A stretch of DNA of 25,021 nt from Patescibacteria group bacterium (GTDB taxonomy: Bacteria > Patescibacteriota > Patescibacteriia > Magasanikbacterales > UBA922): positions 1-25,021 of the forward strand of contig JBBTQT010000136.1 in assembly GCA_038065575.1 (NCBI GenBank). Direction: 5' to 3'. The translations under genes were made by a program, and so were the position numbers. The notes under the pieces are model-generated. The model made no database searches and was not told where the DNA came from. It worked only from the letters and a program-made list of their open reading frames with translations. Each line of letters starts with the position of its first letter. Within the stretch, counting starts at the first letter, position 1. Below, piece by piece: positions 237 to 17,877 of the stretch.

Positions 237-495
237 AATTGTCATTCCAGCGAAGGCGGGAATCCAGAATTTGACTCAAATAGACGACGAACTGGATTCC
301 TGCTTTCGCAGGAATGACAGAAAACCGTATCCGGCGACAATCCAGAATCAATTGTCATTCCAGCGAAGGCGGGAATCCAGAATTTGACTCAAATAGACGA
401 CGAACTGGATTCCTGCTTTCGCAGGAATGACAGAAAACCGTATCCGGCGACAATCCAGAATCAATTGTCATTCCAGCGAAGGCGGGAATCCAGAA
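237..495. repeat. 113-bp tandem repeat (2 full copies plus a partial third), each unit an inverted REP doublet (BIME/REPIN-like)
   Basis: GTCATTCCAGCGAAGGCGGGAATCCAG starts at 241, 354 and 467 (period 113). The inverted partner CTGGATTCCTGCTTTCGCAGGAATGAC lies at 292-318 and 405-431. Spacers are identical between units. Confidence 0.95.
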
Positions 496-515
496 ACACA
501 AATAAACAAATAAAA

Positions 516-809
516 TTACTTAAACAATTTGTTATACAAATCCTTCCAGTTACAATTATTCTCCTCTATAAGTTTTAATTTCCAATCACGTTTCCAAATT
601 TTCAATTGTTTTTCTCTTTTTATGGCATCTTCTATTCTACCAAATACTTCAAAATACACTAGCATGTGAACTTGATACTTTTTGGTAAAACCTTTTACTA
701 TATCCAATTTATGTTCTTCAACTCTTCTTTTTAAATCATTAGTAACTCCAATATACAATGTGCCATTTTTTTGACTAGCCATAATGTATATGTAGAAGTT
801 AGTATGCAT
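516..809 (-). CDS. Short stand-alone GIY-YIG nuclease family protein (97 aa)
   Basis: YIYIMASQKNGTLYIGVT (GIY-YIG motif pair), RRVEEHK and REKQLKIWKRDWKLKLIE. Start moved to the ATG at 809 because the longer ORF only translates the REP (VIPAKAGIQ). Confidence 0.9.
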   Translation of the reverse strand: MHTNFYIYIMASQKNGTLYIGVTNDLKRRVEEHKLDIVKGFTKKYQVHMLVYFEVFGRIEDAIKREKQLKIWKRDWKLKLIEENNCNWKDLYNKLFK

Positions 810-833
810 AGTTTTTTGTATGGTGTATGTTTT

Positions 834-860
834 CTGGATTCCTGCTTTCGCAGGAATGAC
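834..860 (-). repeat. CGTC-type REP palindrome upstream of the GIY-YIG gene
   Basis: CTGGATTCCTGCTTTCGCAGGAATGAC, identical to 292-318. On the minus strand it forms the perfect hairpin ATTCCTGC-GAAA-GCAGGAAT. Confidence 0.95.
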
Positions 861-888
861 AAACGAACATGCGGTACTTTGCAATTAT

Positions 889-1941
889 CTAGAGGTATTT
901 TTCCAACCCTTCTTCCTCTATTTTTTTCAAGATGTCTTTTATATTCGGCACTTTGTCTTTCGGGCAGACGAGGAGAGCGTCTTTGGTGTTCACCACCACC
1001 ATCCCCTCCGCTCCCACCACCGCGACTAACTTTTCTTCTTCGTTATTGTAAACAAACGAATCCCGTGATGAATCCAGAACGACCTTGCCTTTGGTAAAAT
1101 TATTTTCCGGATTAGGCGCCAAGGCCTCCTTCAAAGCGTAGAGCGTGCCCGGATCGCTCCAGCCCAAATCCACCTTCAACACCACCGCAGCCTCCGAACT
1201 GATTTTCTCCAAAATGGCGTTATCAAAAGAAATTTTTTCCAAATCCGGATACATTTTCTTGATTTTTTCCTCGTCGCCATTCATCTCATTCAGGGCGCGA
1301 TACATTTCCGGCTGATACTTTTCGTACAGCCCCAAAACAAAATCCAAATCAAAAATGAAATAACCGGGATTCCAAAGCCATTCGCCACTCTCAAACATTT
1401 TTTCGCATTCCGCTAATTCCGGACGGTATTTCCATCCCAAAAATTCGTGTTGTTGGCCGCTGATTTTTTCGCCAACCTTGATCCAACCCAAATTATGATT
1501 GGCGAATCTGGGTTTTTCTCCCAAAAATACCAGCCGTTCGGAATCCTCGGCAATCAATTCCTTACCTTTTTTGAGCGCGGCCACAAATTCCGCCGGATGA
1601 TCCATGAAATGATCCGCCCACAAGACCGCCACCGCGCCGGCGACACCCATTTTCTTTAATCTCGTCAAACTAAGTCCGACCGCGGCCGCCACATCGCGAC
1701 GCGCCGGCTCTCCGAGAATATGGTGAGCGGACAGTTCCGGTATCTGGGCGCGAACGAGAGAAATATATTCGTCATTGGTGGAAACGAACAAATTTTCCAT
1801 CCCAAATTCTCTTACTCTATCCACCGCCATTTGCAAAGTGGATTTATCATCCTTCAAAATTTCAAATTGTTTCGGAGAATTTCGGCGGCTCAAAGGCCAA
1901 AGCCTGGTCCCCGCTCCGCCAGCGAAAATTATGATATTCAT
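889..1941 (-). CDS. manC: Mannose-1-phosphate guanylyltransferase (ManC-like, no C-terminal cupin/PMI domain)
   Basis: IIFAGGAGTRLWPLSRRNSPKQF, EPARRD, WADH, WNPGYFIF, WSDPGT. Start set at MNIII (1941). Confidence 0.85.
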   Translation of the reverse strand: MNIIIFAGGAGTRLWPLSRRNSPKQFEILKDDKSTLQMAVDRVREFGMENLFVSTNDEYISLVRAQIPELSAHHILGEPARRDVAAAVGLSLTRLKKMGVAGAVAVLWADHFMDHPAEFVAALKKGKELIAEDSERLVFLGEKPRFANHNLGWIKVGEKISGQQHEFLGWKYRPELAECEKMFESGEWLWNPGYFIFDLDFVLGLYEKYQPEMYRALNEMNGDEEKIKKMYPDLEKISFDNAILEKISSEAAVVLKVDLGWSDPGTLYALKEALAPNPENNFTKGKVVLDSSRDSFVYNNEEEKLVAVVGAEGMVVVNTKDALLVCPKDKVPNIKDILKKIEEEGLEKYL

Positions 1942-1951
1942 AGTACAATAC

Positions 1952-2197
1952 AATTACGAATTAACCGCCTTCGTCCCGACTAAGTCGGGACTACGGACGG
2001 TCGAAGAAAATTATTTTATCCGCCATAGCTCAAAAGCGAAGGCGGACGAATTACGAATAATGAACATGTTGTATCACGTCATTGCGAGGAGCGAAGCGAC
2101 GTGGCAATCCCTTAGTTTATATCAAAGTACAAAGGGATTGCCACGTCGCTCACTGCGTTCGCTCCTCGCAATGACGTAAAATTTTTAATTCTTAATT
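1952..2197. repeat. Composite heptamer-armed element containing three nested palindromes
   Basis: AATTACGAATTAA at 1952-1964 and ACGAATTACGAAT at 2046-2058. Degenerate inverted arm GTAAAATTTTTAATTCTTAATT at 2176-2197. Hairpins at 1965-2000, 2020-2045 and 2076-2177. Confidence 0.75.
2076..2177. repeat. CGTC-type REP inverted doublet (GTCATTGCGAGG family)
   Basis: The 38-bp arm at 2076-2113 is matched by 2132-2177, perfectly except for an 8-nt insert (TCACTGCG). The spacer is 18 nt and AT-rich. Confidence 0.92.
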
Positions 2198-3294
2198 CCA
2201 TCGGTCTTTTTCCACTTCAAATACGCTTCCACAAACGGATCAAGCTCGCCATTCAATACCGCCTCGGTATCGGCCGTCTCGTAGCGCGTTCGCAAATCCT
2301 TGACCATGTGGTAGGGATGTAGCACATAAGATCTAATCTGACTGCCCCACTCCGGACTTTTGTATTCGCCACGCAATTTTTGGTGTTCTTCTTCTTCTTT
2401 TTCTTCCTGTAATTTTATCAGTTTTGAATGCAAAATTTTCAGGGCGGTTTCCTTGTTTTGCAATTGCGATCTTTCATTCTGACATTGCACGGTCGTGCCG
2501 GTCGGAAGGTGGACAATCCGCACCGCCGAATAAGTGGTATTGACGCTTTGGCCGCCCTTGCCGCCGGACATGAAAGTATCTATGCGCAAATCTTTGGGAT
2601 CAATTTCCACCATTTCGGCAGACTCAACCTCCGGTATCACCTCAATCAACGCGAACGAAGTATGACGCATTTTTTCGGCGTCAAAAGGAGAAATCCGCAC
2701 CAGCCGATGGGTGCCATGTTCACCCTGTAAATTGCCATACGCGTACCGTCCTTCAATCCGCAAAGTCGCGAGCTTGATGCCGGCCTCGGCTCCCTTAGCT
2801 TCATCCAATATCGTCACCATCCACTGTTTTTTTTCCGCGTAGCGCGTTATCATTCGCAACAGCATTTCCGCCCAATCTTGCGCCTCCGTGCCACCACTGC
2901 CGGAATGAATGGAAACAATGGCGTTTTTTTTGTCATTTTTTCCGTCAAAAAGCGCGAAAAATTCCAACTTGGCGAATTCACCATTCAATTCAGTGATTCT
3001 TTTGATTATTTCCTGTTTCAGGTCCGCGTCCGGTTGGCTGACCAATTCCGCGCAAAGACGAAGCAAATCCGCCACTTCTTGCTTCATTTTTGTCCAGGTT
3101 TCCGCTTCATCTTTCAATTCCTTGTACCGTTGCGCGGTCTTCTTGGCCTCTTCCTGATCCTCCCAAAAATCACCGGCCTGCATAAATTTCTCCAAACCAT
3201 GACTCTCGGCAATCATCTCATCAACCTTAAGCAAGCCCCAGGTAAAGGCGATTTTTTCTTGCAAAGATTCCAATTGGGCGATCTGATCATGCAT
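2185..3294 (-). CDS. prfB: Peptide chain release factor 2, single continuous ORF
   Basis: RISPFD (SPF specificity motif), GGKGGQSVN (GGQ) and WGSQIRSYVLHPY. Start set at MHDQIAQ (3294). Confidence 0.97.
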   Translation of the reverse strand: MHDQIAQLESLQEKIAFTWGLLKVDEMIAESHGLEKFMQAGDFWEDQEEAKKTAQRYKELKDEAETWTKMKQEVADLLRLCAELVSQPDADLKQEIIKRITELNGEFAKLEFFALFDGKNDKKNAIVSIHSGSGGTEAQDWAEMLLRMITRYAEKKQWMVTILDEAKGAEAGIKLATLRIEGRYAYGNLQGEHGTHRLVRISPFDAEKMRHTSFALIEVIPEVESAEMVEIDPKDLRIDTFMSGGKGGQSVNTTYSAVRIVHLPTGTTVQCQNERSQLQNKETALKILHSKLIKLQEEKEEEEHQKLRGEYKSPEWGSQIRSYVLHPYHMVKDLRTRYETADTEAVLNGELDPFVEAYLKWKKTDGIKN

Positions 3295-3348
3295 AATATG
3301 TTTTTCAATCTTATCCCAAATACCATAAAAAAACAAGCCTGCCGACCC

Positions 3349-3377
3349 TTGACTTTTTTCTATTTTTGAGGTAATTT
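3349..3377 (+). promoter_or_regulatory. Putative sigma70 promoter for the plus-strand gene
   Basis: TTGACT (3349-3354) - N17 - TAATTT (3372-3377). An AAGGAG SD-like site lies at 3409-3414. Confidence 0.5.
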
Positions 3378-3417
3378 TACTGACTGCCAGTAAAAACCCG
3401 TAAGGATTAAGGAGAGT

Positions 3418-3726
3418 ATGTCAACGATCATGGTTGTCGTAGAACATCGCCTTGATCCAAAAGAGGCGATCCGAAGAATCAAGGAGGCGTACATGGGCAA
3501 GAAGGCCAAGTACGCCAGCATCGCCACCGTTCAGACGGAGGAATGGGAGGATTTGGCCGGCGCGGTCACGGCCAGTGTGCTCGGAACAACCATCACCGGC
3601 ACAGTGCAGTGTCAAGAAGAGACGGTTACGGCCGTCTGTGAACTGCCTCTGCCCCTGAAGGTAATCTTCGGGCGTGATCTCCATGAAAAAATTGAGAACC
3701 GGCTCACAAGCCTGCTCTCAAAATAA
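3418..3726 (+). CDS. Polyhydroxyalkanoic-acid-system (PHA_gran_rgn-like) small protein
   Basis: 102 aa. The pattern HxLxxxEAxxRI...W...G...G...V...LP..L..F...IE..L resembles PF09650. Only plus-strand gene in the window. Confidence 0.65.
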   Translation: MSTIMVVVEHRLDPKEAIRRIKEAYMGKKAKYASIATVQTEEWEDLAGAVTASVLGTTITGTVQCQEETVTAVCELPLPLKVIFGRDLHEKIENRLTSLLSK

Positions 3727-3749
3727 AGTGGAGAAATTACTGGCAAAAG

Positions 3750-3778
3750 CTTGGGGTCGAGAAAATCTCGGCCCCAAG
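3750..3778 (+). terminator. GC-rich hairpin downstream of the PHA_gran_rgn-like gene (terminator or stability element)
   Basis: CTTGGGGTCGAG-AAAAT-CTCGGCCCCAAG, a 12-bp stem with one G-U pair. No U-tract follows. Confidence 0.45.
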
Positions 3779-3865
3779 TGAATGCCCCGCCGAAAAAATT
3801 ACAAATCATTCCCCGTGTACGAAAGATTTAAACTTTTATTTATCAAATGTCAATCATAATTCAAT

Positions 3866-3896
3866 AAAAAACGCTCGCTATTTCAGCGAGCGTTTT
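3866..3896 (-). terminator. Intrinsic terminator of groES-groEL
   Basis: Stem AAAACGCTCGCT / AGCGAGCGTTTT with a 5-nt loop. The minus-strand stem ends in a 6-T run. Confidence 0.85.
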
Positions 3897-3903
3897 CGTA
3901 CTT

Positions 3904-3932
3904 GTTCTATGTTCTATGCTCTATGTTCCATG
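3904..3932. repeat. Heptamer tandem array, second family (G-T/C-T-C-T/C-A-T x4)
   Basis: GTTCTAT GTTCTAT GCTCTAT GTTCCAT, immediately after the groEL stop. Confidence 0.85.
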
Positions 3933-3934
3933 CC

Positions 3935-5871
<1,937 letters not shown>

Positions 5872-5902
5872 ACCGATTGGAGTTAATAAATAAATTTAAG
5901 CT

Positions 5903-5929
5903 TTATCACTCTACCACCGAGAGTGATAA
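5903..5929. promoter_or_regulatory. CIRCE-like operator (HrcA site variant)
   Basis: TTATCACTC-N9-GAGTGATAA, against the canonical TTAGCACTC-N9-GAGTGCTAA, 31 nt upstream of groES. Confidence 0.85.
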
Positions 5930-5972
5930 TAGTCAAGACCCCATTTTAGCAGTAGTTTTCACTTTTTGTCAA
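5908..5972 (-). promoter_or_regulatory. Tandem sigma70-type promoters of groESL
   Basis: P1: TTGACA (5972-5967) - N18 - TAAAAT (5948-5943) with a TGn extension. P2: TTGACT (5936-5931) - N17 - TAGAGT (5913-5908) with TGn, overlapping the CIRCE. Confidence 0.65.
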
Positions 5973-6002
5973 GGCTCGTAAAAGACATTTTCCCCGCCAA
6001 AC

Positions 6003-6163
6003 AAAAAAGCCCAGAATAGGTAATGAGCTCGGTATGACGACCTTTACAAGCCAGCGATGCCTGTCAGCGGCGCTAACTTCCTGTGGCGTGCATTCCGTGC
6101 CTATTACCTATTATAGGCTCTTTATTTTCACCCCGCACTTATCAATAGATTATAAACACTAAT
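6003..6163 (-). ncRNA. Candidate structured small RNA, family unassigned
   Basis: Has its own consensus promoter and no ORF. Folds by eye into a rod-like hairpin (AATAGGTAAT 6015-6024 pairs with ATTACCTATT 6103-6112; AAGTTAGCG pairs with CGCTGGCTT) and ends in GGGCTTTTTT. Confidence 0.55.
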
Positions 6164-6169
6164 AAAGTT

Positions 6170-6198
6170 ATTATAGACTACTTGATCATCCCCGTCAA
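6170..6198 (-). promoter_or_regulatory. Near-consensus sigma70 promoter
   Basis: TTGACG (6198-6193) - N17 - TATAAT (6175-6170). Confidence 0.8.
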
Positions 6199-6241
6199 AT
6201 CAAAATTTAAGCTAAAATAAGCCAAAATCAATACCAGTGGA

Positions 6242-7573
6242 CTAACTGTGGACAGTTGGCCTGAAAATGATACCGAGATATGTCGCAAAGCTGAACATTT
6301 CGACCGGCAATGACCAAAAATAGTGATCAAACGATAATCCGAAAATAAGCGGAATGAGCAAAAACAACTCCAAATGCCAATTTTTCTTTGGTTTTATGAG
6401 GCGGAAATACCGTACAAATGAAGCCGACAACCCGAGGAAAATTATCACTCCGACCACCCCCATTTCGGCCGTAAACAACAGCGCCGTATTATGCGCCGGC
6501 TGATACTCCCAGCCCGGTCGGGAATTATCAAGGAGATACGCGGCGACGGTATAATTCCCGCTACCGACACCAAGCCAGGGATGGCGAGCGATAATTCGTC
6601 CTGCTTCGTCATATCCGGAAATTCGTTCTTGAACCGAGGTTATTTCCGAAGCGGAAATTCCCACCAGACGGGTTTTGACAAGAGGTGAGTAAATAATTCC
6701 GCCGATAAAAAAAATTAAAATCGGCAGTGATAAAAAAACAGCAAAGTTTTTTGACAAAGTTTTATTCCATAATCCCAAACCGCCGAACAGCGCGAACGCC
6801 GCCACGAGCATCCCCGCCGCGCTTCGGCTGAAAGAAAAAAATAAAGCGGCGGAAATAATGACAATGAACAAACTTAATATGATTTTTTTGCCTGATTTTT
6901 GAATCGGATTATCGGAAATGAAATAAAACACTGACATGAGTACCAGCGCGAGGTAACCGCCGAAAATATTGGGATGCGCGAATGATCCGTAAGCGCGCAG
7001 CCACCGGCCTGATCCCCCGACAATCGCCGTCCCCGCCTCGGACGGAAGATGCGCGGACAATCCGAGCCAAGGCGCCGGCCAGGTTGTTTGCGCGAGGAAT
7101 TGCGCGATACCCAAAATAGCCGGAATAACGCTCCCCAGCAGGAACCAAAAAATAATTTCTTTTTTAGTAGTCGGTCCGAGATAGATAACGAAAAAAAGCA
7201 AAATGGCTTCCAGTAGATGAATTGAGTGTTGAAAAGCGATTTCCCGAACCGGTGACCAAACGACGGACAGAAATGAATAGAGAATAAAAATCAAAACAAA
7301 CAGCGTGAACACCCGATCCGGCGTCCAAGAAAAAACAATTTTATTCTCTTTGACCGCCCGCGCCACTCGGCGCCCCGACCACCAAAAAAACAGCAAAAAA
7401 ACAATCCAGGCGACGGCCTCCGACAAAAAAAATTGGGTCGCGCCATACTGCCATTTATAACCGTTCAAATACCGTTCGCGAACAATCCAAACCGTTTGCC
7501 AAGGCAAGACAAATAGATACCCCCTTATAAGAACACGAAAAATCGTTTCCAGACTGATTTTTGAAATAAACAT
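6242..7573 (-). CDS. O-antigen ligase / Wzy_C family membrane protein
   Basis: Multi-pass membrane protein with RAYGSFAHPNIFGGYL, SFSRSA, GVGSGNY and PAHN motifs. Confidence 0.85.
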   Translation of the reverse strand: MFISKISLETIFRVLIRGYLFVLPWQTVWIVRERYLNGYKWQYGATQFFLSEAVAWIVFLLFFWWSGRRVARAVKENKIVFSWTPDRVFTLFVLIFILYSFLSVVWSPVREIAFQHSIHLLEAILLFFVIYLGPTTKKEIIFWFLLGSVIPAILGIAQFLAQTTWPAPWLGLSAHLPSEAGTAIVGGSGRWLRAYGSFAHPNIFGGYLALVLMSVFYFISDNPIQKSGKKIILSLFIVIISAALFFSFSRSAAGMLVAAFALFGGLGLWNKTLSKNFAVFLSLPILIFFIGGIIYSPLVKTRLVGISASEITSVQERISGYDEAGRIIARHPWLGVGSGNYTVAAYLLDNSRPGWEYQPAHNTALLFTAEMGVVGVIIFLGLSASFVRYFRLIKPKKNWHLELFLLIPLIFGLSFDHYFWSLPVEMFSFATYLGIIFRPTVHS

Positions 7574-7583
7574 GGCAGTGTAA

Positions 7584-7667
7584 GAATTACGAATTACGAA
7601 TTACGAATTTACGACTACGAAGTGCGTAAGGACACAATTCGTAATTCGTAATTTTTAATTCGTAATT
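7584..7667. repeat. Heptamer-armed inverted-repeat element (AATTACG family)
   Basis: Left arm (GAATTAC)x3 GAATT. Right arm GGACAC-AATTCGTAATTCGTAATTTTTAATTCGTAATT, which contains the stop codon of the upstream gene. Confidence 0.9.
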
Positions 7668-8593
7668 TTCTCGCGCCACCTCTCCCGATACTCCGCTCGC
7701 CGGTCGTTCTCGTGGAATTTCAGCATTTCATCATTCACGACGACGCCGATCCCGAGCGCGCGCCGTCGGTAATCATGATTTCCGGCTATTTTTTTCAACT
7801 GAATTTTTTTGCAAAAACCATTAAGGGCCTCGCCCGTTCGCCCGCTGAAAATTTTTTCAACCGCCGAGTGCGAAAAAAATTCCAATTTATTCAATTTGAC
7901 TTCTAAAATTGACGACAAACTGTAATTCGCGCGGTTATTTTTTACGAAATCGCGCGTCCAGGAATTTTCCGCCAAAACCCGGCAATAATACTCCGCCCCT
8001 CCATAAACCGGTAGGAGCATCAACAGCCAGTATATCAGGTAAACATCCGGAGGATCGAGAGAAACTCCGGACAAATTCAAACTGTTTTCCGTAACATAAA
8101 AACTCAAACAAACCCGATCGGCGATTTTGCGCCTTCCCCGGCGTAAGTTCGTGATACTCATGAGCAGGGTTACGAACATTCGAACGAGCCAGATTTTATC
8201 GTGAGCGGCCACGATAAACAAATCAATATCACTGTCCTTTTTCGGCCAGCCGGCCGCGAGCGTGTTGCAAACGAACACCGCTCGAACGAATGGCACACGG
8301 CTTATCATTTTGATGGCGCGACGGGCAATGCGCGTTTTATGCTCCACCAAAAGAACATTATTCAACCTGGTTTCAACAATTTTTTCCCGTCTCGGCAAAA
8401 AAAAGAAACCGTTTAGCCGACCAACCGATCCGGCCGTTATCGCGCGATCCAGAGCAAGCTGAAAATCAACGTGCGTGCCGCCAATCGGCCCGTCCCACAA
8501 GAAATGTTCCAGTTCGGACGCGGTGAGAGGATAATCAAAAATATCAAAATAAGCCAAAGTTTTTTTGATGCTGATGATAAAATCATCGATCAT
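7655..8593 (-). CDS. Nucleotidyltransferase-domain protein (CPR-type, N-terminal helical/wHTH region)
   Basis: KTLAYFDIFDYPLT at the N-terminus and the DSDIDLFIV Pol-beta-like NTase motif. Confidence 0.75.
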   Translation of the reverse strand: MIDDFIISIKKTLAYFDIFDYPLTASELEHFLWDGPIGGTHVDFQLALDRAITAGSVGRLNGFFFLPRREKIVETRLNNVLLVEHKTRIARRAIKMISRVPFVRAVFVCNTLAAGWPKKDSDIDLFIVAAHDKIWLVRMFVTLLMSITNLRRGRRKIADRVCLSFYVTENSLNLSGVSLDPPDVYLIYWLLMLLPVYGGAEYYCRVLAENSWTRDFVKNNRANYSLSSILEVKLNKLEFFSHSAVEKIFSGRTGEALNGFCKKIQLKKIAGNHDYRRRALGIGVVVNDEMLKFHENDRRAEYRERWREKITN

Positions 8594-8661
8594 ACTTCAA
8601 ATATTCATTCCCCGGCCACACCGTCATTATCGGCCAAAAATGCCCGTTCGGGGCATCTTTT

Positions 8662-8955
8662 TTAACTTCTTTCCGACAGCGCCGCCGGTTCGGTTTTCGC
8701 GGACGCCGATTGGCGCGCCTCAATTCCACCATCCCGAACGACGGCATCGTCCACAATTATTTTTCGATCGGTAAATTCAACGATTTGATCGCGGCTGACG
8801 AGATATTCCTTCCGGCTGACGAAAGACGGCTTCACCCAATATTGAACCACCGCCTGTCCGTCAATTTCAATTTCCAGATTGTAAACATGCCCAAGCGTTT
8901 TGCCGGAAACGGTCTCCACTTCCAGATATTTTAGAGTCTTTAAGTCCAACCTCAT
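8662..8955 (-). CDS. PRC-barrel domain protein
   Basis: LEVETVSGKTLGHVYNLEIEID...IIVDD pattern. Confidence 0.75.
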   Translation of the reverse strand: MRLDLKTLKYLEVETVSGKTLGHVYNLEIEIDGQAVVQYWVKPSFVSRKEYLVSRDQIVEFTDRKIIVDDAVVRDGGIEARQSASAKTEPAALSERS

Positions 8956-8985
8956 AGCCGAATATTCACCAGATTATAATCCCGA

Positions 8986-9723
8986 TTATTTTTGAACGGT
9001 AAGCGCGCCGACATCGGTTCCGGTTTTTCGAAATAATATCATCTGTTGCGCGACGGTAAGCAGAGTGGACAAGAACCAATACAGCGTCAAGCCGGCGGGC
9101 ATTTTCATGCCGATGAACGCCGTCATAAGCGGCAGGAAATACAGCATCTGCTTGTTCATCATCGCGGTCATATTTTCATCCTTGGCCCCTTCTCCGGCCA
9201 CCTTCGGCGCTTTCTTTCTGATGAACATTTTTGATTGGAAGTATTGCGCCGCGCCGGCCAATAACGCCAGAACGATGCTGTTATTTTTCAGATCAAACAA
9301 TCCGAAAGTCACGGTATTCAGCTGTCCGGGATTGGTGACGAACGGATAAAGTTTGTCAAAATTATTTGACGCCAGGCCGGCCTGCAAAACCATATAAAGA
9401 GCGATGAATATCGGCAGTTGCACCAAAATCGGCAGGCAGGATCCGAGCGGATTGACTTTGTGTTCCTTGTACATTTTCATCGTCTCCTGCGCCAACAATT
9501 GTTTGTCATCCTTGAATTTGGCTTTCAATTCATCCAGTCGTGGCTGCATTTCCGATAAGGATTTCTGCGCCTTGATGGAAGATGCCGTCAACGGATAAAG
9601 CAATAATTTGATAACGACGGTAATGACAAGAATCACTACTCCCACATCCGGGATGAAATTATAAAGCAGAACAAATGAATTGAAGATTGGCTGATAAACA
9701 ACTGTTTGAAACAAAGCGATCAT
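8986..9723 (-). CDS. yidC: Membrane protein insertase YidC/Oxa1 (short form)
   Basis: KLLLYPL, QETMKMYKEHKVNPLGSCLPILVQLPIFIALY, PAGLTLYW. Start set at MIALFQ. Confidence 0.95.
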   Translation of the reverse strand: MIALFQTVVYQPIFNSFVLLYNFIPDVGVVILVITVVIKLLLYPLTASSIKAQKSLSEMQPRLDELKAKFKDDKQLLAQETMKMYKEHKVNPLGSCLPILVQLPIFIALYMVLQAGLASNNFDKLYPFVTNPGQLNTVTFGLFDLKNNSIVLALLAGAAQYFQSKMFIRKKAPKVAGEGAKDENMTAMMNKQMLYFLPLMTAFIGMKMPAGLTLYWFLSTLLTVAQQMILFRKTGTDVGALTVQK

Positions 9724-9727
9724 AGTC

Positions 9728-9888
9728 AATTACGAATTAAAAATTACTCGGCTTCGCTTCGCTACGCCGAGCAGGCGAATTACCGCGTCATTCTGATCGG
9801 AGCGAAGAATCCCTTTAGGGGAATTACGAATTAACGATTACGAATGCGAAAGCATGAACCCGCCGGACACAATTCGTAATTCGTAATT
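9728..9888. repeat. Heptamer-armed element whose left arm is interrupted by two palindromic inserts
   Basis: AATTACGAATTAAAAATTAC [29-nt insert 9748-9776] GAATTAC [37-nt insert 9784-9820, containing CGTCATTCTGATCGGAGCGAAGAATC] GAATTACGAATT ... GGACAC-AATTCGTAATTCGTAATT. Confidence 0.85.
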
Positions 9889-9942
9889 GCCACCATTATA
9901 CCACGAATAAAACCAATCCCGCCATTATTCTACCGCCGGTTT

Positions 9943-11172
9943 CTATTCGGCTGTTTCTTCAATTTTTTCAGGTTCTTGCGTCGCGCTTTCCTCGACAACT
10001 GCCGGTTCTTCATCGCTGCTGACGATTTTTTCGCCCCCCTGCTCCACCACTTTTATTTTCCAGCCGGTAAGTTCGGCCGCCAAACGCACATTTTGGCCTT
10101 CGCGTCCGATCGCCAAAGAAAATTGATCCGGCACCACGTATACCACCGCTTCTTTGGTATCACCATTCAATTCCACTCCAGCCACTTTGGCCGGCGACAA
10201 AGCGTGCTTGATGTATTGTTCGGCATTGTCATTATACTGGATTACATCGATTTTCTCTCCGCCTAATTCCTCAATGATGGTGGTGATGCGACTGCCTCTC
10301 TGGCCGATACAGGAACCGATCGGATCAATATTTTCATCCGCGGTGAATACCGCCACCTTGGAACGGTTGCCGGCATCGCGGGCGATTCCTTTTATTTCCA
10401 CTTCCCCGCTGGCAATTTCCGGAATTTCCTGTTCAAAAATCACCTGCACCATCCGCTTATCGGCGCGAGAAAGAATTATCTCCGGCCCGCGTTGTCCCAT
10501 GGCGACCGATGCCACATAAAATTTCATTCTGGTTCCGAGCTTATAATGATCTCTTCTCGTTTGTTCGCCGGCCGGCACGAGGCCGGTTACTTTGCCAAGA
10601 TCCACAATCAACGCGCCACCCCGATCAAATCTCTGCACAAAACCGAAAACAATACTGCCCTGCTGTTTCTTGAAATCTTCCAGAACCGTGTTTCTTTCCG
10701 CTTCGCGCAATTTTTGAATGATGACTTGTTTGGCGGTTTGCGCCGCCATTCGGCCGAAATCTCCGCCCACTTCCAAATCAATAATCAAAGTTTCGCCCAC
10801 CTTCACTTTCGGCTTAATCGCTTTCGCTTCGGTAATCATTATCTCCGTCTTCGGATTAAAATGCGCCAAATCGGCAATTTCTTCCTCGGCCAGCTCTCTT
10901 TGTTCCTTATGCGCCTGCTCTCTCCGTTCGGCCAATTCCACCTGGGCTTTTTCCAATTCCTCGGCGTCAATATCTTCCACCACGATTTTTTCATCCCAAA
11001 CCTTCATGTCGCCGGTGTCCGGATCAAATTTCACCTTGATATTTTGCTGGCGATTGCCAAAATCCTTGCGGTAAGCCGCGGCCATGGCCGATTCCAAGGC
11101 TTCCATCACCATTTCGTAAGATAAATTTTTTTCATCGCAGAGAATCTGGATGGCTTTCGTTATTTCCGACAT
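9943..11172 (-). CDS. nusA: Transcription factor NusA
   Basis: FGRMAAQTAKQVIIQKLREAER, S1 and KH domains, GSCIGQRGSRI, LAIGREGQNVRLAAELTGWKI. Confidence 0.98.
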   Translation of the reverse strand: MSEITKAIQILCDEKNLSYEMVMEALESAMAAAYRKDFGNRQQNIKVKFDPDTGDMKVWDEKIVVEDIDAEELEKAQVELAERREQAHKEQRELAEEEIADLAHFNPKTEIMITEAKAIKPKVKVGETLIIDLEVGGDFGRMAAQTAKQVIIQKLREAERNTVLEDFKKQQGSIVFGFVQRFDRGGALIVDLGKVTGLVPAGEQTRRDHYKLGTRMKFYVASVAMGQRGPEIILSRADKRMVQVIFEQEIPEIASGEVEIKGIARDAGNRSKVAVFTADENIDPIGSCIGQRGSRITTIIEELGGEKIDVIQYNDNAEQYIKHALSPAKVAGVELNGDTKEAVVYVVPDQFSLAIGREGQNVRLAAELTGWKIKVVEQGGEKIVSSDEEPAVVEESATQEPEKIEETAE

Positions 11173-11213
11173 AGACTGTCAAATTAATAAAAAATAAATT
11201 AAATTCTTGAATA

Positions 11214-11245
11214 AATAAGGCAGCTCTTTATGAAGCTACCTTATT
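11214..11245 (-). promoter_or_regulatory. nusA 5'-leader hairpin (possible weak terminator or attenuator)
   Basis: Minus strand AATAAGGTAGCT...AGCTGCCTTATT with G-U pairs, followed by an interrupted U-tract. It begins at the predicted transcription start. Confidence 0.55.
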
Positions 11246-11251
11246 GGTAAT

Positions 11252-11280
11252 ATAATACCACCGGCGCGACCGATTGTCAA
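11252..11280 (-). promoter_or_regulatory. Sigma70 promoter of nusA
   Basis: TTGACA (11280-11275) - N17 - TATTAT (11257-11252) with a TGn extension. Confidence 0.8.
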
Positions 11281-11330
11281 GTTGTGCAAAAATCGTGAGA
11301 ATATACCCGCCCCGACACGATCGTTCCGGC

Positions 11331-11657
11331 CTATTCGGTGAGCGCCGACAAGTAGTCCAAACAGCCATTCATGGTTTTGAAGGGTGTGCCGAGAAGCAGG
11401 CCTTCGCATTGACTGGCGCTTTTGGCCGCCCCGCAATAGTTGACAAGACTGTTACCAAGTCCGGAATCATATAACTGCGAGCCGTAAGCGCACCACACCG
11501 GCGAATTTTCTTCCCGGCTTTTGTCTCGTGACGCTAATGTAAAAGCGAAGACCGCGGAAGCACCACCCAAAAGAACCGCGGCCATTGCCAATTTAACCAA
11601 GGAGAAAGTTCTGGCTTTTACTTTGGAGTGGCGTCCGATTTTCTTGGGCGCGGGCAT
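11331..11657 (-). CDS. Hypothetical exported or membrane-anchored Cys-containing protein (108 aa)
   Basis: Basic N-terminus, hydrophobic KLAMAAVLLGGA segment and four Cys. Start set at MPAPKK, 4 nt after the upstream stop. Confidence 0.7.
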   Translation of the reverse strand: MPAPKKIGRHSKVKARTFSLVKLAMAAVLLGGASAVFAFTLASRDKSREENSPVWCAYGSQLYDSGLGNSLVNYCGAAKSASQCEGLLLGTPFKTMNGCLDYLSALTE

Positions 11658-11661
11658 AGGA

Positions 11662-12795
11662 TTATATTGCCGGGGTGGAGGTGGCAGGGGTTGTCGATGC
11701 GAGATAGAACTTAAAAAGTGTCGCGTCATCTAAACCTAGAGTAGAATACACATTTTTCCCATCTTTATTCCTGACAAGCGCGTAGACATTAGGGGATGCT
11801 TCGGACGCCACAAATATATAGCTACTGGATTTACCCCATTTGGCTTTACCCACATTTGATTTAAAAGCTACATTTTCTGGAAATGCCCCAAAATTGCCAC
11901 CATACACCACTAAAAATCCATACTCCACATTGCCGTCATCATTCAATACTTTGTCTACGCTAATTTTAACTTTCTTATGTTTCAAAGTATCATAGTTAAC
12001 CTTAACTACATTACCCGGGTACGGCAGATTCCCCTTTGCCATTGAATTATTATACACCATCGGATTGTTATTATTGACAACGCTGATTGTCGTCTGATCG
12101 ATAATCGGCTGTTTGGCAGTGGAGGTTGGAGTAATCGGAGTGGTAGATGTGGTGCTACTGGTAAAAGAAATTGCATTATAAAGCCACATATAAGTCCCAT
12201 CGTCAATTCCTAAGCCGGGAAATGTGAACAAATTGTCAGCGTTCTTAGCCAATACATACACATAGAATTTCGATTCTGTATTGACAAACATGTATTGTTT
12301 TGATTTTGTCCAGACCACTTTATCAATCACTTGACTCTTAAACGCCAAATTGTTATCAACAATGCTTGAATAGGTGTCATAAGACACATAGTAACCGTAA
12401 ACCGTATTGGCATCTGCATTATCAACCGCCTTAACAGTTACTACTACTTTATTATTGACGCTTTCGGACGAATATTGTCCCAAATAACCAAGATAATATG
12501 TCAAATTTCCTTGAGCAGCTGACATTTTTTGGGAAAATATTTGTTTAGCATTACCAGGTGCTTTTACTTCCAATGACACTTCCTTGATTACCGGCTGTAG
12601 GGCCTTATTGTACCCATACCCATATCCGCCCTTACCGGAACCGTCACTCCCCGCCCCACCCATTCCGGCCACGGCCGCCGCCGCGAGTGCCGCCGCTCCC
12701 AAAAATGCCACGGCGATCGCCATCTTGGCGGAAGTGACGACACCGGTCTTGACCTGAACGCCGACGGCTGGCGCGCTTGCTTCCAGTACTGACAT
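11662..12795 (-). CDS. Hypothetical surface protein with two tandem ~145-aa repeats
   Basis: Signal or anchor KMAIAVAFLGAA, Gly linker, GYGYGY, two homologous domains and Thr/Ser/Pro linkers. Confidence 0.8.
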   Translation of the reverse strand: MSVLEASAPAVGVQVKTGVVTSAKMAIAVAFLGAAALAAAAVAGMGGAGSDGSGKGGYGYGYNKALQPVIKEVSLEVKAPGNAKQIFSQKMSAAQGNLTYYLGYLGQYSSESVNNKVVVTVKAVDNADANTVYGYYVSYDTYSSIVDNNLAFKSQVIDKVVWTKSKQYMFVNTESKFYVYVLAKNADNLFTFPGLGIDDGTYMWLYNAISFTSSTTSTTPITPTSTAKQPIIDQTTISVVNNNNPMVYNNSMAKGNLPYPGNVVKVNYDTLKHKKVKISVDKVLNDDGNVEYGFLVVYGGNFGAFPENVAFKSNVGKAKWGKSSSYIFVASEASPNVYALVRNKDGKNVYSTLGLDDATLFKFYLASTTPATSTPAI

Positions 12796-12848
12796 AGAAT
12801 CAGAGTTAATGATAAATTGTTAAATAATCTCCAAAGATTTACTTATTT

Positions 12849-13853
12849 TTAACAAGCCACGCCGAGATACAGCGGATCATCTTTGAGTGGCGCGTTCAAT
12901 TCATCCAAACATTTTTTGGCCGCGTCCAATGTCGTCACTACGCCCAATTCCGCCAGCGAACATTTGCCGAGAGGATAAGACAGCAAAGCCCCGGCATCAA
13001 TCTCTAATGGCACAATCTGATTCCGCACGCTGAATAGCGGTATTCCTTTGTATACTCCCACGCAAGCGTATTTGAAGAGAATATCTTCAATCGCCTTTTT
13101 TGATAATTCCGGAAATCCTTTCAACCGTTCACCGCAAGCGTCCGGACTAGTGGCGCCGGTATCGCAAAATTTGGCGGTGTCCGTCGTTTCCGTCTGATTT
13201 TGCGTTTCAGCGGTGTCAGCTTGTTCGGTCTCGGCCGGTGGAACCGGAATATTCTCGGCCAAAGCGGACTTGACAACCGGCACGACCAAGTTTTTTTCGT
13301 TGTTGGTTTCATCAAATTCCGGAATATTTCCATCCGATTTATTTTCAACAAAATCAACATAGCCGAATATTCTTAATGACGAACCGTCAAAAACGGTTTC
13401 AACATCCCGATTAAGAACAATCTTCAGCATCGCGGTTTCGCCCGGCGCCAAATTGAATTTATTGTCCTCGCCGGCGGTTTCGCTTGATTTATCCGCCATT
13501 CCGATGGAAAGACCGGCATCATGGAATACGCCGGCCGGTTCAGTGGTAACGGCAATTTGAAACGGCTGACCGACCGTGGCCTTGCCGATATTCTGATATA
13601 CCACGCTAAGCTCCAGATCACTCGCGCCGTCATAATCGCCACTTACATTCAAAAACAAATCATTGACCACCAAATCCGGTTCTTTGAAATTCACCACAAC
13701 CGGCGGCGGAAGCGGGTCCCTTGATCTTGAACTCGGCAAACTCGGCCGAACCATACTGGCGGCGGCGAGCAAATTGGCTCCGCTGAGGAAAGCCAAAGCC
13801 ACGGCGATTTTCAGGCTGGAAATCGTACTTGTTTTCGCGACAATATCGTTCAT
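12849..13853 (-). CDS. Exported protein with a CARDB-like Ig domain and a Cys-rich C-terminus
   Basis: PDLVV...YQNIG...LAPGET...VD...IPEFDETNN resembles CARDB. N-terminal anchor KIAVALAFLSGA. Confidence 0.75.
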   Translation of the reverse strand: MNDIVAKTSTISSLKIAVALAFLSGANLLAAASMVRPSLPSSRSRDPLPPPVVVNFKEPDLVVNDLFLNVSGDYDGASDLELSVVYQNIGKATVGQPFQIAVTTEPAGVFHDAGLSIGMADKSSETAGEDNKFNLAPGETAMLKIVLNRDVETVFDGSSLRIFGYVDFVENKSDGNIPEFDETNNEKNLVVPVVKSALAENIPVPPAETEQADTAETQNQTETTDTAKFCDTGATSPDACGERLKGFPELSKKAIEDILFKYACVGVYKGIPLFSVRNQIVPLEIDAGALLSYPLGKCSLAELGVVTTLDAAKKCLDELNAPLKDDPLYLGVAC

Positions 13854-13877
13854 ATTAAAAAAATTAAAAAAAACAAA

Positions 13878-15071
13878 TTAGTGAATTTCCTCTTTGTCCA
13901 TCCCCACCCATTCCGCGACCACTTCCTTGATGTGATCCGCGTCCACTAACGGCCAATCGTTTTCCTCATCGCCATTTTTTTCTTCCACTTGAATTTGTTT
14001 CACTACTCGCACCGCCATTCCTCTTAATTTATGCAATTCATTGAAATCCTTGGTGTTTTCCTCCAATTTTAATAATCCGGCCAATTCTTTTTTCAATTTA
14101 TTTATTTTTTCCGAATTTACCGACCGGTTTTCCGCGTCAGCCAATTTTCGCGCCGCGCCGTGCAGAAGAGCCGCCGCGTGATCCGGAACGGCACCGGCCT
14201 CCACATTGACCATCGCCGCCGCTTCGTCAATCAAATCAATCGCCTTGTCCGGCAAACGCCGACCGGTGATGTACTCCTGCGAAAGAGTGACTGCCGCCCG
14301 AATCGCCTCGTCGGAAAATTTCACCTTGTGGTAGGTTTCATAATTCTTTTTAATGCCCTGAAGAATATTAATGGACTCTTCCACACTCGGTTCATCAACG
14401 AGAACGCGTTGAAAACGCCGATCCCAACTTTCTTCCGGTTGAATGTACTGCTCATATTCCTTTTGCGTGGTGGCGCCGATAAGCTGCATATCGCCGCGCG
14501 CGAGCGCCGGTTTCAAAATATCCGACAAATTCACCGACCCTTCCGCGCCTCGCGTCTGCATGACAGTATGGATTTCATCAATAAAAAGTATAATACTGCG
14601 ATTTGACAACCGGATTTCCTCCACCAGATGCTTGATTCTCTGCTCAAATTCACCGCGGTATTTGGTGCCGGCCAGTAATTCGGCCACTTGCAAGGATAGC
14701 ACTCTTTTCTTCGCGAGAATCGCCGGAACATCATTCGTAACGATCTTCAAAGCCAACCCCTCCACGATGGCGGTCTTCCCCACACCGGGCGGTCCGACCA
14801 AAATTGCGTTATTTTTGGCACGACGCGCCAAAATTTGCGTAACGCGCGTTATTTCTTTTTCCCGGCCGACAACCGGATCAATCGTTCCCTCGGCCGCGAG
14901 ACGGGTGACATCAATGGCGTATGAATCCAAGGTCTTCGTGCCGGTACCACCGCGCGAAAACGAAAAACCGCCCCCTTCCTTTCCTTTGGAAAAAAGATAA
15001 ATCGTCACGCCGGCCACCAGGAGAAATACCCCCGCCCAACGAAAGATATCGGGGAGAATCGTTGCGGTCAT
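13878..15071 (-). CDS. Membrane-anchored Clp/Hsp100-like ATPase containing only the first AAA+ module
   Basis: N-terminal TM helix (WAGVFLLVAGVTIYLF), DPVVGREKEI, Walker A GPPGVGKT, pore loop KYRGEFE, Walker B LFIDE, RRLPDKAIDLIDEAAA. Ends at EVVAEWVG, with no second NBD. Confidence 0.9.
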   Translation of the reverse strand: MTATILPDIFRWAGVFLLVAGVTIYLFSKGKEGGGFSFSRGGTGTKTLDSYAIDVTRLAAEGTIDPVVGREKEITRVTQILARRAKNNAILVGPPGVGKTAIVEGLALKIVTNDVPAILAKKRVLSLQVAELLAGTKYRGEFEQRIKHLVEEIRLSNRSIILFIDEIHTVMQTRGAEGSVNLSDILKPALARGDMQLIGATTQKEYEQYIQPEESWDRRFQRVLVDEPSVEESINILQGIKKNYETYHKVKFSDEAIRAAVTLSQEYITGRRLPDKAIDLIDEAAAMVNVEAGAVPDHAAALLHGAARKLADAENRSVNSEKINKLKKELAGLLKLEENTKDFNELHKLRGMAVRVVKQIQVEEKNGDEENDWPLVDADHIKEVVAEWVGMDKEEIH

Positions 15072-15099
15072 ACCAACAAAAAATTAGAATAGCGCCATA

Positions 15100-15172: not shown

Positions 15173-15186
15173 CCATTAGTATACCA

Positions 15187-17735: not shown

Positions 17736-17745
17736 GCTTGTGATC

Positions 17746-17877
17746 AATTACGAATTACAAATTACGAATTACGAATTTCAGATGGACGCCGGTAGACCTA
17801 TAGCCGAAACGGCTAGGATTATGCCTATATTTGGACAACGGACGCAATTCGTAATTCGTAATTTTTAATTCGTAATT
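17746..17877. repeat. Heptamer-armed inverted-repeat element (AATTACG family) with a 68-nt interior
   Basis: Left arm AATTACGAATTACAAATTACGAATTACGAATT. Right arm (17846-17877) is identical to 7636-7667. Internal hairpin TAGCCG-AAA-CGGCTA. Confidence 0.9.

What the first reader, a model, noticed from the sequence alone, without database searches (positions are those of the whole stretch)
7584..7667. Dispersed element family with inverted heptamer arms and a conserved GGACRC junction
Seen four times in 25 kb (1952-2197, 7584-7667, 9728-9888, 17746-17877): (AATTACG)n ... variable interior ... (AATTCGT)n. The 32-nt right arm AATTCGTAATTCGTAATTTTTAATTCGTAATT is identical at 7636 and 17846, including the same TTTT irregularity. 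GGACRC directly precedes the arm in three copies. Interiors differ in length and sequence. Independent slippage microsatellites would not share the irregularity or the junction. Inference: a MITE-like element, or the footprint of a cassette whose ends are heptamer arrays, mobilised by an unknown protein.
Basis: partly seen in the sequence, partly recalled or inferred. Interest (0 to 1): 0.75.

Follow-up and report, generated by a model that had tools for sequence, protein, structure and literature searches.

The report
Gene-less heptamer-armed hairpin elements
The four loci are real copies of a hairpin element that occurs more than 100 times between the genes of this tiny groundwater bacterium. 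Its 7-base-repeat arms are the same arms that enclose a small four-helix-bundle gene (the kind found in rRNA intervening sequences) in unrelated phyla, so they look like gene-less, multiplied copies of that cassette.

Summary
All four loci have an (AATTACG)n left arm and an (AATTCGT)n right arm. The 32-nt right arm is identical at 7636 and 17846, and GGACRC precedes it in three copies.

- **Abundance.** The genome (1.07 Mb) holds 257 exact 11-mers against 0 for the reversed control, about 264 arms in about 166 loci, 82% of them intergenic.
- **Pairing.** A partner arm lies inward for 70 of 133 arms and outward for 2 of 133.
- **Arm design.** The modal length is 32 nt: four units plus AATT, with the second unit irregular.
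- **Other phyla.** The same arm flanks TIGR02436/PF05635 four-helix-bundle genes in Desulfobulbia, Bacteroidota and Shapirobacteria. It is also multiplied in unrelated genomes.
- **Relatives.** 106 genomes of the same family have 0-3 hits against 115 here.
- **Junctions.** In many relatives the orthologous gene junctions are tight or overlapping.

Best reading: these are ORF-less derivatives of the heptamer-armed cassette, acquired and then multiplied in this lineage. In operon transcripts they would fold into 25-32-bp stems, which are probably RNase III substrates.

Movement itself, a target duplication and a mobilising enzyme were not found. This scan has reported the gene-bearing cassette many times on other DNA. 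What is new here is the dense gene-less form and its use as a landing site for other small hairpins.

The parts
7585..7609 (.). Left arm of element 2: 3.5 units of AATTACG. Its outer end lies 11 nt from the ATG of the Wzy_C-family gene (6242-7573, minus strand).
7610..7635 (.). 26-nt asymmetric core of element 2; GGACAC junction at 7630-7635.
7636..7667 (.). Right arm of element 2: the canonical 32 nt, four units plus AATT, second unit from outside irregular. The stop codon of the upstream 312-aa gene (7655-8593, minus strand) lies inside it.
17746..17777 (.). Left arm of element 4, 32 nt, second unit AATTACA. It lies 10 nt from the ATG (17735) of a methyltransferase gene.
17778..17845 (.). 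68-nt interior of element 4 with a small inner hairpin; GGACGC junction at 17840-17845.
17846..17877 (.). Right arm of element 4, identical to 7636-7667. It ends 3 nt from the stop of the 81-aa ORF (17881-18126, minus strand).
9728..9832 (.). Left arm of element 3, split at the AATTA^CGAATT step by two unrelated small GC-rich hairpin inserts (about 9747-9775 and 9784-9821). Removing them restores the canonical arm.
9833..9870 (.). Core of element 3: AACGATTACGA at one end, GGACAC at 9865-9870.
9871..9888 (.). Right arm of element 3 (2.5 units). The element fills the NusA (9943-11172) to YidC (8986-9723) junction.
1952..2197 (.). Element 1, decayed and composite. It holds an outer left unit (1952-1962), two GC hairpin inserts (1963-2048), an inner arm remnant (2049-2059), a 102-nt GC-rich palindrome (about 2076-2177) and a degenerate right arm (2180-2197). 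It lies between the release-factor gene (2185-3336) and the ManC-like gene (889-1941).

Best explanation
The four loci belong to a family of more than 100 ORF-less palindromic elements. Their ends are a defined 32-nt inverted repeat built from 7-nt units: AATTACG, an irregular unit such as AATTAAA, two more AATTACG units, then AATT.

They are miniature derivatives of a cassette found in many phyla. [quoted passage not shown]

The element entered this Patescibacteria lineage horizontally and multiplied into the gaps between genes. One subfamily, marked by a GGACRC junction, arose in this lineage.

Once transcribed within operons, each paired copy would fold into a 25-32-bp A/U-rich stem. By analogy with the heptamer-bearing stem of the Coxiella IVS, that stem is cut by the host's RNase III, which uncouples the flanking cistrons.

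Shown: anatomy, copy number, pairing polarity, the cross-phylum identity of the arm, its link to the gene, its restriction to this lineage, and folding potential.

Inferred: horizontal entry, copy-and-paste spread, RNase III processing.

Unknown: the enzyme or host process that copies the element.
For: 1. Defined ends rather than slippage.
- The modal arm is 32 nt (44 of 71 long arms).
- Units 1, 3 and 4 are AATTACG in about 75-90% of those arms, while unit 2 is irregular: AAA in 23, ACG in 22, others in the rest.
- The two arms of one element share their unit-2 variant in 7 of 13 cases against 3.2 expected, P=0.004.

2. Polarity of pairing.
- A partner lies within 300 nt inward for 70 of 133 arms and outward for 2 of 133.
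- Neighbouring arms run left-then-right 48 times and right-then-left 10 times.

3. Link to the gene-bearing cassette.
- The exact 25-mer occurs in more than 119 contig stretches of many phyla.
- In 8 of these the arms enclose a TIGR02436 gene, E about 1e-32.
- Those proteins are 55-78% identical to one another across phyla, but only 23-35% identical to this genome's own two PF05635 proteins. Both of those sit between other short-repeat arms; for the C79 gene these are inverted arrays of an 8-nt unit.

4. A burst confined to this lineage.
- This genome has 115 hits; 6 of 106 family genomes have 1-3 hits and the rest none; the reversed control gives 0.
- The same unit is multiplied in unrelated genomes: 303, 69 and 44 hits in Rikenellaceae, Desulfobulbia and Shapirobacteria MAGs.
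- The GGACRC-plus-arm junction occurs 15 times here and 0 times in the foreign loci.

5. Inserted relative to the ancestral junctions.
- The NusA-YidC gap is -8 to 29 nt in 17 of 59 relatives, against 213 nt here.
- The 312aa-Wzy gap is 18 nt or less, or overlapping, in 30 of 55 relatives, against 81 nt here.

6. No preference for gap type: arms occur in 14% of tandem, 11% of convergent and 15% of divergent gaps.

7. Folding and processing.
- Free energies are -31 to -53 kcal/mol with z about -6 to -7.7.
- An RNase III gene is present at C98:92-478.
- Coxiella RNase III cuts the middle of a 28-bp IVS stem, and tandem heptamers lie at that cleavage site (PMC4990558).
Against: - No copy was caught moving. 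Public contigs of the same population break at the arms, so no filled or empty allele could be read. The nearest relatives found are only 55-70% identical in YidC.
- No target-site duplication is visible. The element begins and ends with the palindrome AATT, which would hide one.
- The 96%-complete assembly has no AATTACG-type four-helix-bundle gene or remnant. It also has no recognised transposase.
- Arms are near-identical while cores are only about 50% identical. That fits selection or homogenisation of the arms as well as a recent burst.
- About 45% of arms lack a detectable partner.
- Relatives carry hairpins with other 7-nt units at the same junctions. That pattern could also reflect old hairpins whose arms turn over in concert.
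- No RNA data were available.
Confidence: 0.6

Rival explanations
1. The elements are native cis-acting hairpins of operon junctions (mRNA processing, stability or translation-initiation elements). They arose in place and are kept alike by slippage plus gene conversion. They are not copies of a mobile element.
For: - Arms abut start codons at 3-12 nt, and stop codons sit at or inside the arm.
- The genome lacks Shine-Dalgarno motifs: 4.7% of genes have an SD-like motif upstream against 8.9% in a control window. An A/U-rich leader could therefore matter.
- Relatives have hairpins with other heptamers at the same two junctions.
- The arms of one element co-vary.
- Arms are far better conserved than cores.
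- TAACTGA heptamer arrays next to start codons were proposed as sites for a regulator (PMC4679880).
Against: - The identical 25-32-nt arm, with the same irregular unit, occurs in unrelated phyla.
- It is nearly absent from 106 genomes of the same family.
- Many relatives have tight or overlapping junctions at these sites.
- Arms show no preference for tandem, convergent or divergent gaps.
- No promoter-like, terminator-like or Rfam match lies in the elements.
- The same arms enclose a conserved gene elsewhere.
Confidence: 0.17
2. The arms are the recognition repeats of a trans-acting protein encoded elsewhere in the genome, in the manner of REP/RAYT or Ssn/NTS. Candidates are a small GIY-YIG nuclease, one of the genome's own four-helix-bundle proteins, or the reverse transcriptase with its Avd-like partner.
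For: - There are four small GIY-YIG genes, one in the window at 516-884 framed by inverted hairpin repeats. The Ssn family cuts single-stranded DNA next to its own repeat (PMC11893778).
- One RT gene (C95:6487-7095) lies beside a weak PF05635 hit.
- Three families of GC-rich hairpins sit at one fixed step of the arm, AATTA^CGAATT. This implies some site-specific activity on the arms.
Against: - The window's GIY-YIG gene is framed by a different, GC-rich repeat and not by heptamers.
- No RAYT (Y1 transposase) or PF13366 gene is present.
- The two strong PF05635 genes of this genome sit between other arm units.
- No gene in this genome is framed by AATTACG arms.
Confidence: 0.15
3. The arrays are independent heptanucleotide microsatellites that happen to lie in inverted pairs.
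For: - Period 7 is the commonest tandem period in this genome.
- Unit number varies from 1.5 to 7.
- A one-base length variant occurs in the T run at 7651 in two runs.
- Heptamers are the most abundant long simple repeats in many bacteria (cited in PMC4679880).
Against: - The exact 11-mer occurs 257 times against 0 for the reversed control.
- The arm has a fixed 32-nt design with an irregular unit at one position.
- Pairing is strongly polar, 70 inward against 2 outward.
- The junction and core boxes are shared between copies.
Confidence: 0.02

Closest known systems
ORF-bearing intervening sequences of 23S rRNA (Coxiella burnetii S23p IVS; Leptospira and others), PMC4990558
   Same: Both have a long terminal inverted repeat that forms a stem of about 28 bp containing tandem heptamers. 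Full-length relatives carry a gene of the same PF05635 family. Distribution is sporadic and thought to be horizontal. The Coxiella stem is cut by RNase III.
   Different: The elements here lie between protein-coding genes and not in rRNA. They have no ORF and occur more than 100 times per genome instead of once. The unit is AATTACG, not GACAGAT. Cleavage has not been tested.
Heptameric GGGAATC repeats of Xanthomonas, including 70-75 convergent inverted pairs (PMC4692102)
   Same: Both are dispersed arrays of a 7-nt unit, mostly intergenic and within 50 nt of start or stop codons. Both prefer about four units, and many sit as inverted pairs able to form stem-loops.
   Different: Those units are G-rich and were interpreted as quadruplex formers. 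No link to a gene family or to a cassette was drawn, and no irregular unit or core was described.
TAACTGA heptamer arrays of marine Beggiatoaceae, Cyanobacteria and Bacteroidetes (PMC4679880)
   Same: There are about 170 sets in one genome, lying a few nucleotides upstream of start codons. The forward orientation has stops in all three frames. The distribution is patchy across phyla, horizontal transfer is suspected, and no mechanism is known.
   Different: Those are almost all direct arrays (one indirect repeat), not hairpins. A regulator-binding role was proposed.
MITEs and Correia/NEMIS-type elements (PMC2229807; the RNase III processing of Correia elements is from my own knowledge)
   Same: Both are short, ORF-less elements with terminal inverted repeats, present in high copy in intergenic gaps, and co-transcribed as hairpins.
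   Different: No target duplication is visible here and no parent element with a transposase is known. The ends are tandem arrays, and the full-length relative carries a non-enzymatic four-helix-bundle gene.
REP/REPIN with RAYT (PMC3116915) and Ssn/NTS (PMC11893778)
   Same: In both systems, palindromic repeats are dispersed in hundreds of copies and tied to one small gene that sits between copies of its own repeat.
   Different: No RAYT is present. The GIY-YIG (Ssn-like) genes of this genome are framed by other repeats. The gene tied to AATTACG arms elsewhere has no known catalytic activity.
Small dispersed repeats nested in heptamer arrays of Nostoc (Elhai et al. 2008, Genome Res 18:1484; recalled from memory, the paper was not retrievable)
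   Same: In both cases, very small hairpin repeats are inserted at a fixed position inside tandem heptamer arrays, giving nested mosaics.
   Different: The phylum and the sequences differ. I could not re-read the paper, so this comparison is a lead only.

Membership tests
MITE | Terminal inverted repeats, small size, no ORF, many dispersed copies | tested here: met
   32-nt arms; elements of about 80-250 nt; about 166 loci; 82% of arms intergenic
MITE | Target-site duplication flanking each copy | tested here: inconclusive
   No direct repeat is seen outside the arms. The ends are the palindrome AATT, which would mask a 2-4-nt duplication.
MITE | Parent autonomous element with the same ends that encodes a transposase | tested here: not met
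   No DDE_Tnp_1, rve, TnpB or Y1_Tnp in the genome. Full-length relatives elsewhere carry a four-helix-bundle gene, not a transposase.
MITE | Insertion polymorphism (filled and empty sites) among close strains | tested here: inconclusive
   Contigs of four runs break at the arms. Only distant relatives are available; many of these have tight junctions.
Heptamer-armed PF05635/TIGR02436 cassette (IVS type) | Inverted arrays of a 7-nt unit forming a long stem | tested here: met
Heptamer-armed PF05635/TIGR02436 cassette (IVS type) | Arm sequence shared with gene-bearing members | tested here: met
   The same 25-32-mer flanks the gene in L013, L023, L029, L042, L055, L059, L063 and L089.
Heptamer-armed PF05635/TIGR02436 cassette (IVS type) | Four-helix-bundle ORF between the arms | tested here: not met
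   No ORF or remnant in any AATTACG element of this genome. I therefore file these as ORF-less derivatives, not full members.
Heptamer-armed PF05635/TIGR02436 cassette (IVS type) | Excision of the stem by RNase III | not testable with these tools
   An RNase III gene is present. No RNA data were available.
REP/RAYT (REPIN) | RAYT (Y1 transposase) gene flanked by the repeats | tested here: not met
   No PF01797 match in the genome
Ssn/NTS | Small GIY-YIG gene framed by the repeat it recognises | tested here: not met
   Of the four small GIY-YIG genes, none has heptamer arms beside it; the window's copy is framed by GC-rich hairpins.
Simple heptanucleotide microsatellite | Arrays that arise and vary independently by slippage | tested here: not met
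   Fixed 32-nt design, irregular unit at one position, shared junction, polar pairing
Intrinsic terminator | G+C-rich stem followed by a U run | tested here: not met
   No terminator-like site lies in the elements. The stems are A/T-rich and have no T tail.

The most novel reading that the evidence does not exclude
The AATTACG hairpin is a horizontally transmitted element that spreads without any enzyme of its own. Its arms are read unit by unit by the multimeric IVS-type four-helix-bundle protein. Gene-less copies persist because hosts without Shine-Dalgarno motifs use them: RNase III cutting in the stem separates cistrons and leaves the downstream gene with a short A/U-rich leader ending 3-12 nt before its AUG. 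That would tie together rRNA intervening sequences, the unexplained excess of heptamer repeats in bacterial genomes, and this protein family of unknown function.
Probability: 0.15. Interest if true: 0.8.

Novelty: new variant of a known kind. Interest (0 to 1): 0.55.

Why it matters
Dispersed heptamer arrays have been reported in Xanthomonas, Nostoc, Beggiatoaceae and Coxiella, but never explained. The PF05635 'intervening-sequence protein' still has no known function.

This genome shows the gene-less form at very high density, about one locus per 6-8 kb in a 1-Mb genome. The arms are identical to those of gene-bearing cassettes in other phyla. The close relatives lack them.

That makes three questions testable:
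- Do the arms spread as a unit?
- What copies them in a genome with no recognisable transposase?
- Do long perfect stems at about 90 operon junctions reshape mRNA processing in an organism without Shine-Dalgarno motifs?

A practical point: the arms break short-read assemblies, so copy numbers in MAGs are underestimates.

Tried and rejected
- **Filled/empty alleles.** Contigs of four groundwater runs were laid on 900-18900. All pieces stop inside the arms, and the 'joints' only link arms of different loci, so the result is uninformative.
- **Close relatives.** The best metagenome relatives are only 55-70% identical in YidC. No genome of the same genus is held.
- **Rfam.** No family matches the window.
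- **Promoter and terminator scan.** Nothing lies in the elements.
- **23S rRNA.** I looked for one, to check for an IVS with these arms. None is in the assembly.
- **Target duplication.** None is seen.
- **Remnant of an AATTACG-type four-helix-bundle gene.** None.
- **Orientation of solo arms towards start codons (28 against 4).** I do not rely on this. The opposite orientation has no stop codons, so my longest-ORF gene calls would swallow it; 11 of 12 arms inside ORFs have that orientation.
- **Orientation of the asymmetric core against gene direction (10 against 2).** The sample is too small to build on.
- **Literature.** A search for the arm sequence found no paper. TIGR02436 appears in no paper. 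Elhai 2008 was not retrievable.

Full report
**1. Observation**

- Element 2: left arm 7585-7609, a 26-nt core, right arm 7636-7667.
- Element 4: arms 17746-17777 and 17846-17877 around 68 nt.
- Element 3: right arm 9871-9888, and a left arm broken into three pieces between 9728 and 9832.
- Element 1 (1952-2197): a decayed composite.

The 11-mer AATTCGTAATT (up to 1 mismatch) occurs 20 times in the window against 1.9 expected. The two 32-nt right arms are identical, and GGACAC or GGACGC precedes the arm in three copies.

All window genes lie on the minus strand, and each element fills one gap between genes:
- release factor and ManC-like gene;
- 312-aa ORF and Wzy_C gene;
- NusA and YidC;
- 81-aa ORF and a methyltransferase.

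**2. Genome-wide census**

The window is one whole contig of a 1.07-Mb, 148-contig, 46% G+C genome. Another agent of this scan calls it a groundwater Magasanikbacterium (Patescibacteria); I did not check the name.

- The exact 11-mers occur 257 times; the same words read backwards occur 0 times. At up to 1 mismatch there are 264 arms, about 20 of them expected by chance, and 82% lie in the 12% of the genome that is intergenic. They cluster into 166 loci.
- Period 7 is the commonest tandem period. AATTACG is by far the commonest unit (95 arrays), followed by its one-base variants.
- Pairing is polar. A complementary partner lies within 300 nt on the inner side for 70 of 133 arms and on the outer side for 2. 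Neighbouring arms run left-then-right 48 times and right-then-left 10 times. About 45% of arms have no detectable partner.
- Arms occur in 14% of tandem, 11% of convergent and 15% of divergent gaps, so they are not tied to transcript starts or ends.
- They fill the gaps. In 48 cases the outer end lies within 30 nt of a start codon, mostly 3-12 nt away. In 35 cases it lies at or over a stop codon.
- The genome as a whole lacks Shine-Dalgarno motifs, so the missing ribosome-binding site beside the arms is not special.

**3. Anatomy**

- **Arms.** The arm is not a free-running microsatellite. Of 71 arms of 25 nt or more, 44 have four units plus AATT. Units 1, 3 and 4, counted from outside, are AATTACG in about 75-90%. 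Unit 2 is AATTAAA in 23, AATTACG in 22, and AAG, AAT, ATC or TCA in most of the rest.
- **Co-variation.** The two arms of one element share their unit-2 variant more often than chance: 7 of 13 against 3.2, P=0.004. This includes the rare pairs TCA/TCA and ATC/ATC.
- **Cores.** Short elements have an asymmetric core of 24-38 nt, with AACGATTRCGA next to one arm and ACGGACAC next to the other. The middle is variable, with a mean identity of about 50%.
- **Subfamily marker.** The GGACRC-plus-arm junction occurs 15 times in this genome and not once in 119 foreign loci with the same arm. It marks a subfamily that arose in this lineage.
- **Nested inserts.** Longer elements are mosaics. Three families of small GC-rich hairpins sit at one fixed step of the arm, AATTA^CGAATT, without visible duplication. 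They are followed by CGAATT in 27 of 40, 11 of 19 and 10 of 10 copies.
- **Folding.** Elements 2 and 4 fold into 25-32-bp stems on either strand, at -31 to -53 kcal/mol and z of -6 to -7.7.

**4. What the arms belong to**

The exact 25-mer that includes the irregular unit was found in more than 119 contig stretches of species genomes. These come from Bacteroidota (most), Planctomycetota, Desulfobulbia, Acidobacteriota, Gammaproteobacteria, Verrucomicrobiota and four Patescibacteria groups. Twenty of the 119 loci fetched hold the full 32-mer.

In eight loci the two arms enclose a 116-119-aa gene. Its start lies 0-45 nt after one arm and its stop lies inside the other. The protein is a TIGR02436 four-helix-bundle protein, the PF05635 '23S rRNA intervening-sequence protein' family, with E about 1e-32. 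The other loci are gene-less hairpins or single arms.

The armed proteins are 55-78% identical to one another across three phyla. They are only 23-35% identical to this genome's own PF05635 proteins.

This genome has two clear PF05635 genes:
- One lies between 109-nt inverted arrays of an 8-nt unit, ACCTTGCC.
- The other lies between CAAAT-type arrays.

A third, weak hit lies next to a reverse transcriptase and is probably the Avd of a diversity-generating retroelement. No AATTACG-type gene or remnant exists in the assembly. Gene clade and arm unit therefore go together, and the elements here are the cassette's ends without its gene.

**5. Distribution**

- Among 107 species genomes of the same family, this one has 115 hits to 2.5 units at up to 1 mismatch. 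Six others have 1-3, the rest none, and the control gives 0. The few hits in relatives are single arms or lie inside genes.
- Unrelated genomes that carry the arm also have bursts: 303 hits in a 3.1-Mb Rikenellaceae MAG, 69 in a Desulfobulbia MAG and 44 in a 0.6-Mb Shapirobacteria MAG.
- An Acidobacteriota MAG has 143 hits. This count, and the use of loci L026, L035 and L081, rest on genome G125, which the tool flags as unpublished.
- The gene order NusA-YidC-97aa-312aa-Wzy is kept in 80 metagenome relatives. The NusA-YidC gap is -8 to 29 nt in 17 of 59 relatives, against 213 nt here. The 312aa-Wzy gap is 18 nt or less, or an overlap, in 30 of 55, against 81 nt here.
- Several relatives hold hairpins at these same junctions, but with other 7-nt units or with GC-rich hairpins.

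Taken together, this is the pattern of an acquired element that multiplied in one lineage. It does not exclude old junction hairpins whose arms turn over.

**6. Mechanism**

I commit to this reading at 0.6: these are ORF-less derivatives of the heptamer-armed cassette, spread by copy-and-paste into the gaps between genes, co-transcribed, and folded into long perfect stems that RNase III cuts.

The last step rests on three things:
- the gene for RNase III;
- the length and perfection of the stems;
- the Coxiella IVS, where a gene of this family lies inside a 28-bp stem, tandem heptamers lie at the cleavage site, and RNase III cuts mid-stem in vitro.

How the DNA is copied is unknown. The assembly has no DDE transposase, rve integrase, TnpB, RAYT or PF13366 nuclease. 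It does have four small GIY-YIG genes, none with heptamer arms beside it; the window's copy is framed by GC-rich hairpins.

The near-identity of the arms against the 50% identity of the cores means one of two things. Either the arm sequence itself is constrained or homogenised, or the cores diverge by another route. I could not decide between these.

**7. Comparison with print**

- Inverted pairs of heptamer arrays near start and stop codons are described for Xanthomonas, without a gene link (PMC4692102).
- TAACTGA arrays next to start codons, with a patchy cross-phylum distribution and no mechanism, are described for Beggiatoaceae (PMC4679880).
- PF05635 ORFs are noted in rRNA insertions of CPR bacteria (PMC11270868).
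- I found no paper that holds the arm sequence and none that names TIGR02436.

This scan has reported the gene-bearing cassette many times on other DNA, including one report with the AATTACG unit. This report adds the dense gene-less form, its private subfamily marker, its restriction to one lineage within the family, and its role as a landing site for other hairpins.

**8. Verdict**

The feature is real and far beyond chance. Interest is moderate.

Noticed in passing
window 237-884: A 122-aa GIY-YIG gene (516-884, minus strand) sits between inverted copies of a GC-rich hairpin repeat (TGTCATTCC...GGAATCCAG). A 113-nt unit holding two such hairpins is repeated in tandem at 237-462. This resembles the Ssn/NTS arrangement, and another agent has followed it up.
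   Followed up: partly
window 9747-9775, 9784-9821, 1963-2048: Small GC-rich hairpins of at least three families are inserted at the same step of the heptamer arm (AATTA^CGAATT) with no visible duplication. Genome-wide they are followed by CGAATT in 27 of 40, 11 of 19 and 10 of 10 copies.
   Followed up: partly
G000:C79:1639-2259 (L128:1339-1959): The genome's best PF05635 gene lies between 109-nt inverted arrays of an 8-nt unit (ACCTTGCC, about 13 copies). A second PF05635 gene at C87:1417-1704 lies between CAAAT-type arrays. The cassette design is therefore not limited to period 7.
   Followed up: partly
G000:C95:6487-7627: A reverse transcriptase gene (minus strand, E 5e-24) lies next to a weak PF05635/Avd-like ORF (plus strand). 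This is a likely diversity-generating retroelement.
   Followed up: no
whole genome, gene starts: The base before the start codon is T in 70% of 802 predicted genes. Shine-Dalgarno-like motifs are depleted upstream: 4.7% against 8.9% in a control window.
   Followed up: no
G000:C27:6806-6837 and ten other places: Single arms in the stop-free orientation lie inside long predicted ORFs, for example 186 nt into a 567-aa ORF, where they would encode LRI/NYE/ITN-type peptides. They are either in-frame insertions or false fusions of two genes.
   Followed up: no
L170, L146, L153, L172, L197, L215, L218, L222: Relatives of the same family carry hairpins with other 7-nt units (for example AAGATCR, ATCACAT, AACTCTA), some at the very junctions filled here. 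Heptamer-armed hairpins seem general in this family, with a different unit in each genome.
   Followed up: partly
window 7651: Contigs of two runs from another study carry one extra T in the irregular TTTTT unit of the right arm. This is the only length variant seen in an arm.
   Followed up: no
contig ends of G000: 17 of 296 contig ends lie within 120 nt of an arm, against about 9 expected. Public contigs also stop in the arms, so the elements break assemblies and their number is underestimated.
   Followed up: no
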